Position numbers: made by a program
Part shown: positions 18,001-24,000 of the stretch, piece by piece
Numbering within the stretch: the first letter of the stretch is position 1
How the letters are laid out: each line of letters opens with the position of its first letter
Source: Desulfomicrobium sp.
GTDB lineage: Bacteria; Desulfobacterota; Desulfovibrionia; Desulfovibrionales; Desulfomicrobiaceae
Reading direction: 5' to 3'
DNA length: 64,000 bases
Assembly (NCBI GenBank): GCA_040768745.1
Contig: JAXGMI010000002.1
Location: 832,001-896,000 of the forward strand

Positions 18001-21000
18001 GCCGACGACATGGGCAATGTGGCCAAGGCCCTGGGCATGGTCCATCCGGGCAAGGGGACCAACACGGTCCGTGCCGTCTTCATTGTCGACCCCAATGCCG
18101 CCATCAGGATCATGCTCTATTACCCCCAGGAAATCGGGCGCAACATGGATGAGATCGTCCGCTGCGTGAAGGCCCTGCAGACGTCGGACACGAACAAGTG
18201 CGCGTGTCCGGCCAGCTGGCCCAACAACGAACTGATCGGCGACAAGGTCATCATCCCCCCGGCCAAGGACGTCAAAACGGCCAAGGAACGCACCGGCGCG
18301 AAGGACAGCTTCGACTGGTGGTTCTGTTACCGCAAACTCTAGCCGCAAACTCTAGCCGCAAAAAAGACGGGAGGTCTGGCCAGACCTCCCGTCAACTTCT
18401 TTAAGAAATTATCGAAAGCCGTTCTTCCCTGGTCACCCCGCAGGAGGATGAGACCGCGGCAAACCTGCCTCAGTCCCACCCAGGACATGCGGGGCAACCC
18501 TACCTCGGCGCCCGGAAGTAGATGACGGACTGGGCGCTCATCTTTTTCACGATCTCCTTGCCCTCGGCCTCAAGCTCCATTTTCAGGATTTCCTTTTCTC
18601 CGAAACGGATGGCGTCGGTCAGGCAGGCCTCGGCACAGACGGGCTTTTCACCCGAGTGCACGCGGTCCCAGCACAGGTCGCACTTGTGGGCCTTGTTTCG
18701 GGCCGCGTCGAACTGGATGACCCCGTAGGGACAGGCCTCGATGCAGGCTTTGCCGCCTGCGCATTTCTCGGCCAGGATGCGCACGATCCCGGTCTCGGGG
18801 TCCTTGACGATGGCTTCGGCCTTGCAGGCCTTGATGCAGGCAGCGTTCTTGCAATGCTGGCAGGGCATGACCCAGCTCGTCTCCGAGAGGTTGGGGTACA
18901 CGCCTTGGCGCTCGCATTCCACGCGTAGGTAAAATGGGATCTCCCCGGGCATGCAGTTCTCGTGGTCCACAAGGCCGTGACTGTTGCGGCAGGCCACCAC
19001 GCAGGTCTTGCAGCCGATGCAGCGGTCCAGATCTATGGCCAGACTCAATTGTTTCATGGCTTCCTCCTTACTTGCTGATGCGGACGCGGGTGGACACATG
19101 GGCCTCGCCGCCGACGAGATCCTGCCATTGCAGATGGGAACCGGCGTCGGGGATGAGATCGTTGTCGTTCACGCCCGCCCCCGCTCCCACGCGTCCCACG
19201 CTGGCGCCGAACCCGTGCATGATGCCGATGCAGTCGGGCCGGATGTGCTCGGTCAACTTGACAGGTGTGGTCACGCTGCCCGTGCGCGAAGATATGGTCA
19301 CCTTGTCTCCGTCCCGGATTCCGAGCTTCGCCGCCGCAGCCGTGTTGATGAGGGCCGGGTTGGTGGGCTGGCCCGAGGCCGGGTCGCGCAACTGGGCGTT
19401 GTTCACGGACCAGGGGCCCGTGCCGTTGATGTGAATGCGGCGGTAGCTGATCATGATGAACGGATACTTTTCTGCGTCCGCGTCATATTCGGGAGCAAGG
19501 ATGTTTCTGGGCAGGGCCTGACCGATGTCCTCGAGATCCTCCCAATAGAGTTGGACCTTCTTGCTCGGCGTGCCGAAGCCCCGTTCGCGGTACTTGTAGA
19601 AGCCCAGGGTGCCGGGGGACCATCTGCCGCCCATGTCCTGCAACTTCTTCACGGACAGACCAAGGCCCTTGAGCTGGGTATCGTAGTATTCCACATCGTC
19701 CCTGAACTGGAAGTATTCCGGGAACATGCGCTTTCCGAGTTCGATGAAGACCCGGTTGGAATGCCTGGCTTCACCCGGAGGGTCGACCAGAGGCTGGCGC
19801 AGGAGCACGCCGTGGCCGAAGTTGTACCACCAGGGCATGTACAGGAGTTCCCAGCGCTCGAAGTGGGTCTGGTCCGGCAGTACGATGTCGGCGTACTTGC
19901 CCGTTTCCGAAAGCATGATGTCGGTGTTGAGCAGGAATTCCAGCTTGTAGTTCCCATTCTTGTCCTTCATGCACACGGCCTTCTGCCATTCCCTGCTGCC
20001 CATTTCGGTCAAGGCCGGATTGGCCTCGGTGACCATGAGGATTTTCAGGCCATCGTCCTTGATGGCCTGGGTTTCATACCAAGTGGGCTCCAGGATAAAG
20101 CTGTACTTGGCGAACTTTTCACGGTTCGGGCCGGTGCGGTGAAAGCCCTTATCATGCAGGGGCGCTGGGCCCTTGGGCAGCGGCGTGACGGGGGACAGGG
20201 GCGTCAGGTCCGGAATAGGCTGGCCGCCCGGATTATCGAGATTGCCTGTGATGGCCAGAAAGATGGCCCAGGCGTGGCCGTAATCCAGGGCCTGGCCGAG
20301 CATGATGGACTTGAAGCCGTCCACTCCGACGGCTGGTGCCGCGGCGCACATCTCTGCCAGCTTCACGATGTCCCGGGCCGGGACATCGCAGATCCTGCTC
20401 ATGGCCTCGGGAGTCATGGGTTTCACGTGGGCCTTGACCTTTTCGAAGTCGCCTTCGCGCACCCATTCTTCGACGAACTTCTTGTCATAGAGGTCGTTGG
20501 CGATGAGGTAGTTGATCATACCCAGGAACAGGGCCGTGTCGCCGGACGGCTTGATGGGGATCCACCAGTCAGCCTTGGCCGCGTCGGGGCTGAAGATGGG
20601 GTCGATGACGACAAGCTTTGCGCCTCGGTCCTTGGCCTCCAGGATGTCGCGCGGGGCCACGGCGTCGTCCAGACAACCGAAGGCGTGGCGCCCGGCCAGA
20701 AGCATGATGCCGTCCTTGGGCATGGTGAACCAGGCCGGCGGAATATGGTGGTTGGGGATGCCTCCCCAGCACTTGATCTGGGCCACGATCTTGGCCGAGT
20801 CGCAGTGCGGCAGACCGGTGTTGATGTAGCCTCCATAGGCGTTGAGGAAGTGCCATTTGGGGTCCGTCAGGGAATGGGGAAAAAAGCTGTAGGTCAGCTT
20901 GTGGGCCTCGCCGCGGTCATAAAGGCTTCTCAGCTTGGCCTCGATGGTATCAAGGGCCTCGGCCCACGAGATTTCGGCGAACTTGCCTTCTCCCCGTTCG

Positions 21001-24000
21001 CCAATGCGCTTAAGCGGCTTGGTCAGCCGGTCCTTGGAGTACTGCAGGGTCACTCCGGCCATGCCCTTGACGCAAACCTTGCCCCGGAACTTCGGATTGC
21101 CCCGCACCTCCGTGACCCGACCGTCCACAATCCGGGCCTCAATGGCGCACTCGGCTTTGCATTGGTAGCATACCGTCGGATACCAGTTACCGTTCATGTT
21201 TTTCCTCCTTCTCGTTTGACCCGGAGATCGGGCCGGGTCCTCCCGTTGCAGGTTTGGCGAGGGGGCCGCACGTCGCAGCTTCCGCCACGAGCACCCGCGC
21301 GCCGAAAAAATGATGCAGGGACATGACCGCCAGGCCGGCCAGCATGACCCACAGGCCTGCCTGGTAGACCACGATGCTCCACGGCCTGGCGCACATGAGC
21401 AGGCTGGCCGCGAGGCAGGCGCCGGTGCCCACGATATCCGCCCGCTGCATGCCCAGGTTGAACCAGGATCGGCCGCAACCGTCTTCGGGCGGCGGGCACT
21501 CGAACCAGAGGCGGTTCCACGCCACGCCGAAGGCAACGGCCAGGATCGCACCCCAGGCCATGTGCAGGGGCAGCACCAAGGCCGGCGCCGGAAGCGGCAG
21601 GATGGCCGGGATGGCCGCCGTGGCCGCCGCCGGAGGGTGGTCGGCGTCCAGGATTTGCATCAACGCACTGGCCAGGAGCACGGCCAGACCGAGCTTTGCG
21701 GGCAGGACCATGGCCGTCCCTCCGAGCAGGGTCTCTCCGGCGGCAACGCCGAGCAGACCTCCCACCGTGGCCACAAAATGCCCGACGATGACGGATTTGG
21801 GCCGGGCCACGCGCAGGTAGGTGCAGGTCGCGCCTATGAAGCAGGTTGCTGCCAGGGGGGCATAGAGCACCCCCACACCCGTGCTCTCGCTGACCAGGAC
21901 AATGAAGGCCAGAAACAGGCCCGCCCCGGTGGATCCCCACAGGATGCGCGACAGGGAGATGATTCCGGGGTGGTACACGTCGCGCATGAATTCCCGCCTG
22001 CAGGGCGGGATCAGTCTGATCTCGATCATGCGGTTCCTCCGTCGTCGCGCATTGCGACGCCGTGTGCAGTGAACAAGTTCTCATTGAAAAAGAGCCCCGA
22101 AAGGGGAAAAAGGTTCGCTCGGGTCATGAATCGGTCCAACTTCCGAGCGAATTGCAGGGAGGCGGTCCGTCGGAGTGTCAGTTCGCTCCGGGAGGAAGAA
22201 GGGAATCAAGGTCGCAGGGTGTTTCGAGGATGCCCGCCTGCAGGGCCAGGTTCATGACCCCGGCGGCCCGGCTCCGGTCCGGGGAAAGGTCATGAAAGCT
22301 TACGAATCCACGGTCAAGCACAAAGGCGGCGACATCTCGGTCCACTCCTGTGTAGCGGGACTGGATGGCGGCGCTCTCCTGCGGGCGGGCGTAAACATAG
22401 TCCGCCGCTGCATGCAGGAGGTTCACGTAGCTCGCGAGCAGTTCCGGATTGGAGCGGGCGAAGTCGTCCCGGACGGCCAGAATGCAGCAGACATGGTCCG
22501 GAGTCAGATCCCGGGAACGGATCATGATTCTGCCCGTGCCGGCGGCCTCGGCCAGCAGGCCCCACGGTTCGGCGCAGAAGAAGCCGTCCAGCTCTCCTTT
22601 GGCCAGGGGGCGTTGCATGGAGGACGGGTTCATGTACACGGCCCTGAAGGGCCCGGATCCCCCGGTCTGGCCGAAACCCAGCATCGTCCTCAGCAGCATG
22701 CCGTGGGTGGACAGGGGATGGGGCAGACCCAGGGCCGCCCCGCCGAGGTTCCTGGTCAAGGCCCGGCCCGGGTTTCCGGTCAGGTTGCGGGCAATGGAGC
22801 TGTGCACGGTGATGGCGCTGCCCTCGTGGTGCCCGTCCATAACCCATCTGAGGGGCAGCCCGCGGTTGTGCAGGACCATGGCCAGAGGCGCCATGAGCAT
22901 GGCCGCGTCCAGGGATTCGTTGACCAGGGCCTTGGCCAGCTGCGCCCAGGACAGAAACTTGCGCAGGCAGATGTGGAAGGTCGCCTGGTCGTGGCGCTGG
23001 TGGGCGACCATAGGCAGGAGGTGGTCCGAGATGGGCAGGTAGCCGACGCGGATGGTTTGCCTGTGCTGCCCGGCCACGGAGCGCATCATGCGGTCGCGGG
23101 TCTCGTGCAGCCGGCGCTTGATGGTGCCCACGGGGGCGCCCAGGGCCAGCGAGATCTCCTCGTAGGAACGGCCGAGCAGGTAGCGCTGCACCGCGGCCTC
23201 GCGGTAAACGCCGGACAGGGAGGCCAGGAAGGCCAGGACCGCGTCCCGGGTCTGGAAGCGGGCGAAGTGCTCCACCGGGTCCAGGTCGTCGCCAGGGATG
23301 TCTTCGAGGTCGTCGAGGCGAGCCGTCGCGACCTGGAGCCCGTTCGCACGCAGGATGCGCAGACAGCTTCTGACCACGATGCTGCGTAGCCAGGCGGGAA
23401 AGGAATCCGGGTCGCGCAGGCCGGACAGGTGCAGCCAGGCCGCGAGGAAGGCCTCCTGCACGGCGTCTTCCGCCATGGCATGGTCACGCAGACGCTGCAC
23501 GGCCACGGCCGAGGCCATGTCCGAAAAACGGCGGACCAGTTCCGCGAAAGCGGACCTGTTCCCATCCCGGGCTTGGCGCAAGAGTTCCTGGTAATTTTTC
23601 ACCGCACTGTGGTCCGGATTCCGAGTTCAGGGGGAAAAGGCAATACCCGCAGCAGAACGACATGGCTGGTCCGGGGGAAGCCCTGTCCCGACTGGGAAGA
23701 GATGCATGCTTACAGTCACACAAATGCGCCCAAGAAGCCAGCCCCTTGCCTGACACAGGGAGTGGACGTTGCGGGCTGCCGGCTCCAGCACACCGTGATC
23801 ATCACTTTTATCTGTTGATAATTTTTCCTACTCATGTTTGTATATTATCGACATTGCATACAAAACGGAGGTATTGATGGACATTAAGAAAAAGATTGAT
23901 CAGGCCAAGGATGCTGTTGAAGACTTGAAGGACCGGGCCGAGGAATGGGCCGACAGGGTCGAAGACAGGATCGACGGAGTCCGCGCGTCCATGGACAAGG

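What a model noticed while it worked through the whole genome (the two positions that open the first line are those of the whole stretch)
18500..23602. ECF-type sigma factor fused to an NrtA/SsuA-type ligand-binding domain, locked to a cytoplasmic molybdopterin oxidoreduc [...]
g02627 (474 aa) is a sigma-70 group-4 (ECF-like) factor (regions 2 and 4, residues 22-172) joined without any membrane segment to a 290-residue type-II solute-binding-protein fold of the NrtA / CmpC-regulatory-domain / TauA / SsuA family. It heads a conserved unit with an HPP-family membrane protein (g02626), a signal-peptide-less Psr/Phs-like molybdopterin subunit (g02625) and a SoeB/DmsB-like 4Fe-4S subunit (g02624). 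This predicts a one-component sigma factor that senses a small anion in the cytoplasm and switches on its own oxidoreductase; no anti-sigma gene is adjacent.
Evidence so far: Pfam Sigma70_r2 22-87, Sigma70_r4_2 120-172, NMT1_2 181-410 (pfam.tsv, call 54). 129 database proteins at E<=1e-30; all 120 listed carry PF13379 plus sigma-70 families, 115 at >=90% coverage; named sources are Desulfobacterota or unresolved Proteobacteria/Deltaproteobacteria bins. AF2 with 27 sequences pLDDT 80.5; Foldseek: 3un6 ABC ligand-binding protein TM 0.86, CmpC regulatory domain with nitrate 9uai, TauA 6ssy, SsuA 2x26, NrtA 2g29, all E<1e-12. Gene order: of 56 loci from species genomes 50 hold the fused form; the Mo subunit follows within 3 kb in 42, the Fe-S subunit in 39, HPP in 25; the 8 without end within 2.8 kb downstream of the sigma gene. 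g02625 starts MNGNWYPTVCYQCKAEC (no tw [...]
(Added by a program. Inside this text positions count along the whole contig: contig position 832,001 is position 1 of the stretch shown here. "Call 12" and the like, gene names such as g00115 and contig names such as C1 are that model's own, and its searches are not shown. The text may have been shortened before it was handed on; [...] marks where a part breaks off. The agent that wrote the report below was given it as the finding of a first reader that could run no searches.)

Follow-up and report, generated by a model that had tools for sequence, protein, structure and literature searches.

The report
Ligand-sensing sigma factor with own operon
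A sulfate-reducer gene fuses an alternative sigma factor to a binding-protein-like sensor domain, and a promoter inherited with it points it at one neighbouring operon for an anion channel and an uncharacterised cytoplasmic molybdenum enzyme.

Summary
Window 22178-23602(-) encodes a 474-aa ECF-type sigma factor fused, without any membrane segment, to a type-II solute-binding fold. It is followed by HPP, a signal-less Psr/Phs-like Mo subunit and a 4Fe-4S subunit.

New results:
1. A bipartite ECF-type promoter (sSGAACYTTTT-N13-CTCTt; window 22088-22119, minus strand) lies between the sigma gene and the next gene in 47 of 47 genome loci that keep the spacer. In metagenome loci it is present in 31 of 32 modules with the sigma gene and 1 of 36 without. 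It is absent upstream of sigma genes. In the window's own 3.09-Mb genome it is unique apart from four matches in 23S rRNA genes.
2. HPP is replaced by an FNT (formate/nitrite/hydrosulfide-type) channel in 18 of 50 genome loci, with at least 11 swaps on the enzyme tree.
3. The sensor is not an NrtA-type nitrate site. The specificity lysine is an invariant Cys-Cys pair, as in zinc-bound 3UN6.
4. The enzyme module is wider than the sigma (Chloroflexi, Coriobacteriia, Asgard archaea, at least 63% identity).

Best reading: a one-component, ligand-gated sigma factor with a single-operon regulon. The ligand is unresolved: sulfur anion about 0.4, nitrite/nitrate about 0.3.

The parts
22178..23602 (-). 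Gene for the 474-aa sigma-sensor fusion. Sigma region 2 is residues 22-87 (nt 23342-23539), region 4 is residues 120-172 (nt 23087-23245), and the solute-binding-fold sensor is residues 178-474 (nt 22181-23071). The invariant Cys372-Cys373 are at nt 22484-22489.
   Evidence: domains; family and invariant residues; fold; pocket mapping; no membrane segment.
22088..22119 (-). Predicted target promoter of the fused sigma: AGCGAACCTTTTTCCCCTTTCGGGGCTCTTTT. GAAC is the -35 element and CTCT the -10 element at fixed spacing. It lies 59 nt after the sigma stop and 62 nt before the HPP ATG. The transcription start is predicted near 22082-22085 and has not been shown.
   Evidence: 47 of 47 genome sources that keep the spacer; only match in the window; unique in the genome apart from 23S rRNA; 31 of 32 modules with sigma against 1 of 36 without.
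21187..22029 (-). HPP-family membrane protein (280 aa, about 6 hydrophobic segments). It is replaced by an FNT channel in other loci.
   Evidence: 35, 53, 96 for the HPP/FNT alternation.
19068..21197 (-). Mo/W-bisPGD catalytic subunit, Psr/Phs-like, 709 aa, with no Tat signal. It has an N-terminal C-x2-C-x3-C-x24-C motif, and the predicted metal ligand Cys132 (LPHCDSAK) aligns with the Cys of PsrA (2vpw).
18500..19057 (-). Four-cluster ferredoxin-type (DmsB/PsrB-like) FeS subunit, 185 aa from MKQLSL. An upstream ATG at 19099 would give 199 aa and overlap the Mo gene.
   Evidence: In one search most homologues align from query residues 11-15.
18366..18393 (.). A 12-bp GC-rich hairpin with a T-run on the minus strand and a weaker, interrupted one on the plus strand. 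It is the likely shared terminator of this operon and of the convergent peroxiredoxin gene.
   Evidence: consensus scan only.

Best explanation
This is a one-component ECF sigma factor.

Parts. Its sigma-2 and sigma-4 domains are followed, after about 4-10 residues, by a cytoplasmic Venus-flytrap (type-II solute-binding) domain of the 3UN6 subfamily. The cleft of that domain carries an invariant Cys-Cys pair plus histidines, probably holding Zn2+. This site sits exactly where NrtA and CmpC place the lysine that binds nitrate.

Inferred gating. Binding of a small anion closes the flytrap and frees or activates the sigma domains. This would resemble nitrate releasing the homologous CmpC regulatory domain from the ATPase domains it locks.

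Supported by comparative data. The active sigma directs RNA polymerase to one promoter, sSGAACYTTTT-N13-CTCTt, placed between its own gene and a three-gene operon. That operon encodes (a) an anion channel (HPP here, FNT in other lineages), (b) a soluble cytoplasmic Psr/Phs-like molybdo- or tungsto-enzyme, and (c) its 4Fe-4S partner, which in some lineages carries an inserted NAD(P)H-flavoprotein module.

Other features. The sigma gene has no copy of the motif upstream, so control is probably post-translational. The regulon appears to be this operon alone.

Ligand, and probable enzyme substrate or product. My favoured reading is a thiophilic sulfur anion (HS-/polysulfide or thiosulfate), at about 0.4. 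Nitrite/nitrate is about 0.3, and another small anion about 0.3.
For: Architecture and family. Domains and absence of a membrane segment. All 120 listed homologues have the same fusion. The junction between sigma-4 and strand 1 varies by only one residue in length across 24 sequences of 36-74% identity.

Promoter in genome loci.
- A motif with C at +23 in 41 of 41 aligned sites.
- A PWM scan of 654,550 bp on both strands gave 52 hits. Of these, 47 are the single site 13-357 nt after the sigma stop, one in each of 47 sources. Six of those sources were not in the training set.
- None of the hits lies upstream of a sigma gene.

Promoter in metagenome loci not used for training. The site is present in 31 of 32 modules with the sigma gene, 1 of 36 without it, and once elsewhere in 776,575 bp on both strands.

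Promoter elsewhere.
- In G369 the sigma gene sits on another contig, yet the motif remains 90 nt upstream of the Mo gene.
- In G253 there is neither fused sigma nor motif.
- In the window's own genome there is one promoter-like match plus four in 23S rRNA genes.

Sensor pocket.
- W219 corresponds to CmpC W319, H300 to H408, A344 to G452, and C373 to K481. C372 and H370 are also invariant.
- 3UN6, deposited with zinc bound, is the best sequence and fold match. It has the same CC pair as its only cysteines in the aligned part.
- A published AF3 model of a 3UN6-like binding protein places a metal on two Cys and one or two His (passages read).

Release-by-ligand precedent in the same fold: the CmpC regulatory domain.

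Channel equivalence. No locus has both channels (27 HPP and 18 FNT of 50). There are at least 11 switches on the Mo tree, against a shuffled mean of 25.2 and minimum of 18.

Cytoplasmic enzyme. No Tat signal, N-terminus conserved. The best solved relative is PsrA 2vpw at E 2.7e-65, with the ligand Cys aligned. An FeS::GltD-like NAD(P)H form occurs in L013, L017, L020 and many metagenome loci.

RNA libraries. A contig from an anaerobic-digester metatranscriptome library, at least 99% alike, bridges FeS, Mo and HPP (18418-22048). This shows presence in an RNA library only.
Against: - No experiment or structure shows ligand binding, Zn binding or gating.
- AF2 gives only moderate global confidence (pTM 0.63), and I could not inspect coordinates.
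- The promoter-sigma link is comparative co-inheritance, not biochemical. At least 8 of the 31 positive metagenome sites are letter-identical to genome-locus sites, and 4 more are repeats within the set. That leaves 19 new site sequences.
- One sigma-bearing locus (L133) has no site at the threshold. One sigma gene (L037) is followed by unrelated genes.
- Ligand clues conflict. The enzyme class points to sulfur chemistry. The only substrate known to be shared by HPP and FNT members is nitrite, and the nearest characterised sensors bind nitrate.
- Sulfate reducers make sulfide constantly, so a sulfide sensor is not obviously useful.
- Neighbouring sulfur genes (rhodanese) are not conserved.
Confidence: 0.6

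Rival explanations
1. Nitrate/nitrite version. The sensor binds nitrate or nitrite, with the metal replacing the lysine's positive charge. The Mo enzyme is a novel cytoplasmic, ferredoxin- or NAD(P)H-dependent nitrate reductase. HPP or FNT exports nitrite to the periplasmic NrfA.
For: - HPP-family and FNT-family members share only nitrite as a known substrate. The HPP part rests on search listings and on recall. The FNT is nearest to NirC 4fc4 among solved structures, at E 8e-15.
- After 3UN6, the nearest sensors are the nitrate-binding NrtC and CmpC regulatory domains. Two of their four ligand residues are kept.
- The window's own genome encodes NrfA.
- NAD(P)H-linked FeS variants recall assimilatory nitrate reductases (the parallel is recalled).
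- The family occurs in Nitratidesulfovibrio species.
Against: - The specificity lysine is replaced by Cys in every member.
- The Mo subunit scores far better against PhsA/PsrA than against NasC or NapA (281.6 against 135.6 and 59.2 bits).
- No nitrate importer or nitrite reductase is conserved nearby.
Confidence: 0.3
2. The Cys-Cys/His site is a redox, sulfane-sulfur or metal-availability switch rather than an anion-binding site. Thiol modification, or gain or loss of the metal, would change the domain and thereby the activity of the sigma.
For: - Invariant vicinal cysteines and several invariant histidines line the cleft.
- Zinc is bound in the closest structure.
- Cysteine-rich extensions of ECF238 sigma factors sense metals (passages read).
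Against: - The same CC/His motif occurs in extracellular binding proteins of ABC importers, where a transported ligand is expected.
- The flytrap residues W219 and H300, which contact the anion in relatives, are conserved.
- The operon encodes a channel and an enzyme, not a metal or redox-repair system.
Confidence: 0.15
3. The C-terminal domain is a protein-docking or anti-sigma-like module, for example binding the HPP or FNT channel or another partner, and binds no small molecule. Alternatively, the conserved motif is read by a different regulator.
For: Binding proteins dock on membrane partners. ECF42 extensions are thought to act through protein contacts. No ligand is known.
Against: - Pocket residues are invariant across lineages that use unrelated channels.
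- The motif has ECF geometry, with AAC at -35.
- Its presence tracks the sigma gene, not the channel type.
Confidence: 0.1

Closest known systems
[quoted passage not shown]
   Same: Sigma-2 and sigma-4 only, a fused C-terminal extension of more than 50 aa, no anti-sigma gene nearby, and an extension type conserved within the group.
   Different: The extension is a 297-residue type-II solute-binding fold with a Cys-Cys/His site. No such type appears in what I could read: the main text of PMC7826278, its one held supplement (cut when stored), and PMC8999054. There is no copy of the target motif upstream of its own gene.
C-terminal regulatory domains of CmpC and NrtC (cytoplasmic NrtA-like nitrate sensors fused to ABC ATPases; 9uai, 8wm7)
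   Same: A cytoplasmic flytrap of the same family fused to the protein it controls. W and H of the ligand site are conserved. In CmpC the ligand releases an auto-inhibitory lock.
   Different: The specificity Lys481/Lys269 is Cys here, with a second Cys before it. The output is a sigma factor, not a transporter.
3UN6 (S. aureus ABC binding protein with zinc) and the binding proteins next to clade-B CO dehydrogenases
   Same: Best sequence match (E 5e-39 with the family profile) and best fold match (TMt 0.86). They share the GHHEG, STH, AEP and CC motifs. A metal on two Cys plus His has been proposed.
   Different: Those are secreted or lipid-anchored components of importers with unknown substrate. 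This one is cytoplasmic and fused to a sigma factor. The window's own genome also has a secreted CC-type paralogue.
NasS-NasT (cytoplasmic NrtA-like nitrate/nitrite sensor controlling an ANTAR antiterminator). Recalled from memory and not checked in any call.
   Same: A soluble NrtA-like protein used as a cytoplasmic sensor for gene control.
   Different: It is a two-protein system acting on RNA. Here the sensor is fused and acts through promoter selection.
Polysulfide and thiosulfate reductases PsrABC and PhsABC
   Same: A catalytic Mo-bisPGD subunit with an FS0 cluster motif and a Cys ligand, plus a four-cluster FeS subunit. PsrA 2vpw is the closest solved relative.
   Different: No Tat signal and no PsrC/NrfD-type membrane anchor among conserved neighbours. 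It is partnered with an anion channel instead, and some lineages have an NAD(P)H module. The PhsA model scores 281.6 against a cut-off of 694.

Membership tests
ECF (group 4) sigma-70 factors | Only regions 2 and 4, matching ECF models | tested here: met
   Pfam r2 22-87 and r4_2 120-172, with no r3 or r1. TIGR02937 scores 78.6 bits against a cut-off of 42.9. The best solved relatives of the N-terminal part are SigW and RpoE/AlgU-type factors.
ECF (group 4) sigma-70 factors | Cognate promoter with an AAC-containing -35 element and a short -10 element at fixed spacing | tested here: met
   sSGAACYTTTT-N13-CTCTt is conserved and co-inherited with the gene. Recognition by this sigma has not been shown biochemically.
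ECF sigma factors with regulatory C-terminal extension | Conserved fused extension and no anti-sigma gene in the neighbourhood | tested here: met
   All 120 listed homologues carry the extension. No conserved neighbour exists besides channel, Mo and FeS genes.
ECF sigma factors with regulatory C-terminal extension | The extension controls sigma activity | not testable with these tools
   Inferred only.
NrtA / NrtC-CRD / CmpC-CRD nitrate-binding proteins | Ligand residues Trp, His, Gly and the specificity Lys (CmpC W319, H408, G452, K481) | tested here: not met
   W219 and H300 are kept, Gly is Ala/Ser344, and Lys is the invariant Cys373.
SsuA/TauA sulfonate-binding proteins | Score above the family cut-off | tested here: not met
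   TIGR01728 SsuA_fam scores 63.7 bits against a cut-off of 163.5. Fold similarity only.
3UN6-like (Cys-Cys/His, metal-bound) solute-binding proteins | Vicinal Cys pair and conserved His motifs in the cleft | tested here: met
   C372, C373, H258, H259 and H300 are conserved and align with the CC, HHEG and STH motifs of 3un6.
3UN6-like (Cys-Cys/His, metal-bound) solute-binding proteins | Bound metal ion | not testable with these tools
   Only the title of 3un6 and a published AF3 model of a relative bear on this.
Psr/Phs polysulfide/thiosulfate reductase | Mo-bisPGD subunit with FS0 motif and Cys ligand, plus a four-cluster FeS subunit | tested here: met
   (Cys aligned with that of PsrA).
Psr/Phs polysulfide/thiosulfate reductase | Tat export and a PsrC/PhsC membrane anchor; equivalog-level score | tested here: not met
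   No Tat motif and no hydrophobic segment. No anchor gene is conserved. The PhsA model scores 281.6 bits against a cut-off of 694.
SoeABC cytoplasmic sulfite dehydrogenase | SoeA-type catalytic subunit with a SoeC membrane subunit | not tested
   No SoeA model appeared among the NCBIfam hits and I had no reference sequence. No NrfD-type gene is conserved nearby.
HPP family (nitrite transporters in cyanobacteria and plastids) | TM_HPP domain | tested here: met
   PF04982 at 78.6 bits. The transported substrate cannot be tested here.

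The most novel reading that the evidence does not exclude
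This would be the first sigma factor gated by a metal-containing Venus-flytrap domain, reading the cytoplasmic level of a small anion. The anion would be the substrate or product of a so-far uncharacterised cytoplasmic Psr-like molybdo- or tungsto-enzyme. That enzyme is at least 63% identical from Desulfobacterota to Chloroflexi, Coriobacteriia and Asgard archaea, and always travels with an HPP or FNT channel. Identifying the ligand would also name the unknown substrate of the 3UN6 / clade-B CO-dehydrogenase binding-protein family, and would supply a compact, orthogonal, single-promoter biosensor.
Probability: 0.3. Interest if true: 0.8.

Novelty: new variant of a known kind. Interest (0 to 1): 0.66.

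Why it matters
ECF sigma factors are normally controlled by separate anti-sigma proteins. The few known fused extensions are SnoaL-like, TPR, cysteine-rich or membrane domains. A solute-binding fold fused to sigma-4 would add a direct small-molecule route into promoter selection.

The comparative data already give every part needed for a test: the sensor, its candidate ligand-site residues, the exact promoter, and a one-operon regulon.

The work also flags two other things:
- a very conserved cytoplasmic molybdoenzyme plus channel module of unknown function that crosses phyla and domains;
- a link to the unexplained 3UN6-type binding proteins next to clade-B CO dehydrogenases.

Tried and rejected
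- Docking of sigma (residues 1-177) against sensor (178-474) with complex prediction: no verdict, score 0.00. Not evidence either way.
- RNA-library contigs. In the four runs laid (X1-X3 from one study, X7 from another), no contig covers about 22063-22453, the end of the sigma gene and the spacer with the promoter. Contigs over the operon stop at 22031-22062 and at 18418/18419. All runs are contigs, no DNA run was laid, and RNA libraries can hold DNA. This is at most a weak hint of a separate operon transcript and is not used as evidence.
- Alternative regulators. In 15 sigma-less metagenome modules with at least 2.5 kb upstream, I looked for a shared regulator that might name the signal. The upstream genes are unrelated: UvdE/PilZ, DUF922/HD, CMAS, rhodanese, MobA-like, GltD-like. 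G253 was likewise uninformative.
- Other conserved neighbours over about 125 loci: none in more than 13 loci. The top cluster is a shadow of the long FeS gene.
- Rfam at E<=0.1 around the promoter and leader (L053): no family.
- ECF classification paper. ECF220 looked promising (Proteobacteria, C-terminal extension, membrane proteins at +1/-1) but is from Polyangiaceae with no Pfam domain. NMT1, PF13379, COG0715, SsuA, HPP, molybdopterin, sulfonate, nitrate, Desulfomicrobium and Desulfomonile are absent from its main text or its one held supplement. That file was cut when stored, and further tables may list the group.
- Literature searches for the fusion found nothing relevant.
- Earlier findings of this scan: none.
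- FNT subtype. NCBIfam gives only the generic fnt model, below its cut-off. The PDB ranking is NirC, then LCIA, FocA and HSC, too close to decide.
- I could not read model coordinates, so the cleft position of residues rests on homology.

Full report
WHAT IS THERE

On the minus strand of the window lie four genes:
- a 474-aa gene at 22178-23602;
- a 280-aa HPP-family membrane protein at 21187-22029;
- a 709-aa molybdopterin subunit at 19068-21197;
- a DmsB/PsrB-like 4Fe-4S subunit at 18500-19057 (or to 19099).

A 12-bp hairpin at 18366-18393 is the likely terminator, shared with a convergent peroxiredoxin gene.

The first protein has Sigma70_r2 at residues 22-87, Sigma70_r4_2 at 120-172 and NMT1_2 at 181-410. 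It passes the ECF superfamily model, 78.6 bits against a cut-off of 42.9.

Neither it nor the Mo or FeS proteins has a hydrophobic segment. HPP has about six. The Mo subunit starts MNGNWYPTVCYQC, with no twin-arginine motif.

THE FAMILY

A database search gave 169 proteins at E<=1e-3. All 120 listed carry the same fusion. Named sources are Desulfomicrobium, Desulfomonile, Desulfovibrio, Pseudodesulfovibrio and Desulfobacterota bins.

In an alignment of 24 members (36-74% identical to the window protein), the junction between the last sigma-4 helix and the first strand of the sensor varies by only one residue in length. The sensor also holds a dense set of invariant residues:
- D193, H194;
- W219;
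- D256, H258/H259 (at least 90%), G261, S262;
- S298, T299, H300 (at least 90%);
- C343, E345, P346, W347;
- H370, C372, C373;
- R445.

AF2 gives pLDDT 80.7 and pTM 0.63, with a disordered sigma-2/sigma-4 linker at residues 88-117.

WHAT KIND OF SENSOR

Foldseek and HMMER agree on the ranking. The closest solved relative is 3UN6, a S. aureus ABC binding protein deposited 'with zinc bound' (profile E 5e-39, TMt 0.86). Next come the cytoplasmic nitrate-sensing regulatory domains of CmpC and NrtC, then NrtA, then SsuA and TauA.

The CmpC paper (PMC13287603, passages read) names the nitrate ligands as Trp319, His408, Gly452 and Lys481. Lys481 corresponds to NrtA Lys269 and is the specificity determinant. 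In the bicarbonate-binding CmpA this position is Glu.

I mapped these through the HMMER alignment to 9uai_E, with this result:
- Trp319 corresponds to W219 (invariant).
- His408 corresponds to H300.
- Gly452 corresponds to A344.
- Lys481 corresponds to C373 (invariant), preceded by the invariant C372.

3UN6 has the same CC pair, and these are its only cysteines in the aligned part. A 2026 paper on clade-B CO dehydrogenases (PMC13592312, passages read) reports that the binding proteins next to those enzymes most resemble 3UN6. [quoted passage not shown] Their substrate is unknown.

So the sensor uses the NrtA-family cleft. The charge-bearing lysine is replaced by what is most likely a Cys2His-type metal site. 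It fails the membership test for nitrate binders and for SsuA (63.7 bits against a cut-off of 163.5).

Relatives of the domain occur in many cytoplasmic signalling architectures:
- REC-NMT1_2-SpoIIE;
- RsbW-like kinase-REC-NMT1_2-STAS;
- MCP fusions;
- V4R and GAF fusions;
- fusions to ABC ATPase domains.
Its use as an intracellular sensor module is therefore general, but little studied.

THE PROMOTER (NEW)

I confirm that: k-mer counts there do not exceed shuffles.

The spacer between the sigma stop and the next gene is different. AACCTTT or AACTTTT occurs in most loci, where shuffles give a maximum of 7. Aligning on AAC[CT]TT gave 41 sites with the consensus sSGAACYTTTT-N13-CTCTt. C at +23 is present in 41 of 41, although it was not part of the search pattern.

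A weight matrix scanned over all 51 sources (654,550 bp, both strands) gave 52 hits at 12 bits or more:
- 47 are the one site 13-357 nt after the sigma stop, one in each of 47 sources. Six of these sources were not in the training set.
- 2 are secondary hits in the same spacer.
- 3 lie elsewhere.
- None lies upstream of a sigma gene.

The four sources without a site are L002, L038 and L050, whose contigs end, and L037.

In the window the site is 22088-22119(-). It lies 59 nt after the sigma stop and 62 nt before the HPP start.

In the 3.09-Mb genome the exact pattern occurs five times: this site, and four identical copies inside 23S rRNA genes.

AN INDEPENDENT TEST OF THE PROMOTER

Searching metagenome contigs with the Mo subunit gave 80 loci. 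Of these, 32 carry the fused sigma and 48 show none. Results with the matrix trained on genome loci only:
- 31 of the 32 sigma-bearing modules have a site within 520 nt upstream of the first module gene.
- 1 of 36 sigma-less modules with more than 200 nt upstream has one. That locus is L097, whose contig ends 232 nt upstream, so its sigma gene may simply be cut off.
- 1 further hit exists in 776,575 bp on both strands.

Caveat: 8 of the 31 positive sites are letter-identical to sites of genome loci, and 4 more are repeats within the set. That leaves 19 new site sequences. L069 is the window's own sequence.

Two genomes illustrate the rule:
- In G369 the sigma gene is on another contig, yet the motif is still 90 nt upstream of the Mo gene.
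- G253 has the module but neither a fused sigma nor the motif.

Gene and promoter are thus inherited together. The -35 GAAC with a fixed spacer is ECF-like, and E. coli sigma-E-like by my recollection of GGAACTT-N16-TCT. I conclude that this is the sigma's target, that the regulon is probably this one operon, and that the sigma gene is not autoregulated from this motif.

THE OPERON

Counts among the 50 species-genome loci:
- 45 have the Mo subunit downstream.
- 42 have the FeS subunit.
- 27 have HPP.
- 18 have instead a formate/nitrite-transporter-family (PF01226) channel.
- None has both channels.

Gene orders:
- sigma-HPP-Mo-FeS: 10 loci plus the window;
- sigma-FNT-Mo-FeS: 18 loci;
- sigma-Mo-FeS-HPP: 17 loci.

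The remaining loci are L039, cut after FeS; L002, L038 and L050, cut after the sigma gene; and L037, followed by an aminotransferase gene and an Era-type GTPase gene.

I built a FastTree of 93 distinct full-length Mo subunits. Of 105 full-length sequences, 12 were duplicates. Partial sequences and sequences with stops were dropped beforehand. Parsimony counts on that tree:

| Character | Changes on the tree | Leaves | Shuffled labels |
|---|---|---|---|
| Channel type | at least 11 | 76 | mean 25.2, min 18 |
| Sigma presence | at least 7 | 70 | mean 12.2, min 8 |
| FeS form | 4 | 86 | mean 20.6, min 14 |

Key sister pairs have local support of 0.91-1.0. Two unrelated channel families are therefore functionally interchangeable here. 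This argues that the operon needs passage of one small anion.

THE ENZYME

The Mo subunit is closest to T. thermophilus PsrA (2vpw, E 2.7e-65), with the metal-ligand Cys aligned. Acetylene hydratase and formate dehydrogenases follow.

The best NCBIfam model is PhsA at 281.6 bits, far under its cut-off of 694. NasC scores 135.6 and NapA 59.2.

No membrane-anchor gene is conserved. In L013, L017, L020 and many metagenome loci the FeS subunit carries an inserted GltD-like Fer4_20 + Pyr_redox_2 module. In those lineages electrons therefore come from, or go to, NAD(P)H in the cytoplasm.

The family is remarkably conserved. The top 120 database hits are all at least 63% identical and include sequences labelled Anaerolineae/Chloroflexi, Coriobacteriia, Promethearchaeota and Hodarchaeales. 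Twelve diverse members have a mean column identity of 78%.

It is also rare: 4 of 401 sampled genomes of the phylum, the window's own included, at E<=1e-150.

MECHANISM

Shown by sequence and comparison:
- the fusion;
- the cytoplasmic location of all soluble parts;
- the ligand-site substitutions;
- the promoter and its co-inheritance with the sigma gene;
- the channel alternation.

Inferred: the flytrap binds a small anion through its metal site, and closure changes the availability of the adjacent sigma-4 or sigma-2 domain. The CmpC regulatory domain gives a precedent in the same fold. In its apo form it locks the ATPase domains with its cleft face and is released by nitrate.

THE LIGAND IS OPEN

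Evidence for a sulfur anion:
- the Psr/Phs-like enzyme class;
- the thiophilic Cys/His site;
- the known pairing of an FNT hydrosulfide channel with a sulfite reductase in clostridia (recalled);
- the sulfur-metabolising hosts.

Evidence for nitrite/nitrate:
- the substrate shared by known HPP and FNT members;
- the nearest characterised sensors bind nitrate;
- NrfA is present in the genome.

My estimates are sulfur anion about 0.4, nitrite/nitrate about 0.3, other about 0.3. The pocket residues are invariant across lineages that use either channel, so there is probably one ligand for the whole family.

EXPRESSION

Twelve listed runs on record as RNA hold part of the stretch. In one digester metatranscriptome library, a 3,631-nt contig at least 99% alike bridges the FeS, Mo and HPP genes (18418-22048). 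Separate, shallower contigs cover the sigma gene. Contigs cannot show transcript ends, and RNA libraries may contain DNA, so this shows presence only.

COMPARISON AND NOVELTY

I found no description of a binding-protein-type extension in any of the following:
- the ECF reclassification paper (main text and the one held, truncated supplement);
- the review of non-canonical ECFs;
- five literature searches.

Supplementary tables I could not see may still number the group. I rate it a new variant of a known kind. The complete, testable parts list raises its value, and so does the link to two unexplained families: the 3UN6 / clade-B CO-dehydrogenase binding proteins, and this cross-domain cytoplasmic molybdoenzyme.

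Noticed in passing
window 16282-17664 (+) and 17701-18342 (+): A metallo-beta-lactamase fused to two rhodanese domains (persulfide-dioxygenase-like) and a 1-Cys peroxiredoxin converge on the operon and share its hairpin at 18366-18393. This neighbourhood is not conserved in other loci.
   Followed up: partly
window 8798-16000: A cluster of metal- and cofactor-related genes. It comprises an MBL-fold protein, a NUBPL/Mrp-type P-loop ATPase, a Nitro_FeMo-Co domain protein, a PAS sigma-54 activator, and an SBP_bac_11 / permease / ATPase ABC system. That ABC system may be of the molybdate or tungstate type.
   Followed up: no
L156 (G000:C1:1383942-1387766), ORFs 184-1341, 1393-2523, 2543-3409: The same genome encodes a secreted 3UN6-like binding protein with the same 'PCC' motif. 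It lies between a 2-hydroxyglutaryl-CoA-dehydratase D-component homologue and an ABC permease, so a CC-type ligand may also be imported.
   Followed up: partly
L013:6696-8708, also L017, L020 and many of L073-L141: A long form of the FeS subunit (about 670 aa). A GltD-like Fer4_20 + Pyr_redox_2 NAD(P)H module is inserted between the ferredoxin halves. This form changed only 4 times on the Mo tree.
   Followed up: partly
proteins P0302, P0342, P0352, P0356, P0368: The Mo subunit family is 66-71% identical to the window protein in records labelled Anaerolineae/Chloroflexi, Coriobacteriia, Promethearchaeota and Hodarchaeales. This implies strong constraint and/or lateral transfer across domains.
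   Followed up: partly
proteins P0138, P0141, P0179, P0202, P0251, P0268 and others: NMT1_2 domains related to the sensor sit inside multidomain cytoplasmic signalling proteins: REC-NMT1_2-SpoIIE phosphatases, RsbW-like kinase-REC-NMT1_2-STAS, MCP fusions, and V4R and GAF fusions.
   Followed up: no
L070, L086 (metagenome loci): Sigma-less modules whose Mo subunits cluster closely with sigma-bearing ones (L070 is 97% identical to the window's Mo subunit; L086 is 68%) have a small PilZ-domain gene directly upstream of HPP. The site where the sigma gene would be shows no remnant of it.
   Followed up: partly
G000:C1:18610-20256 and G000:C2:212307-213713: Two of the genome's six molybdopterin-enzyme genes have one in-frame TGA, probably selenocysteine formate dehydrogenases.
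   Followed up: no
window 23838-24341 (+): Divergent from the sigma gene lies a 167-aa YtxH-like protein with an internal near-duplicate segment (DKDSDGVPDAVQGLASKAK...). It is not conserved next to the sigma gene elsewhere.
   Followed up: no
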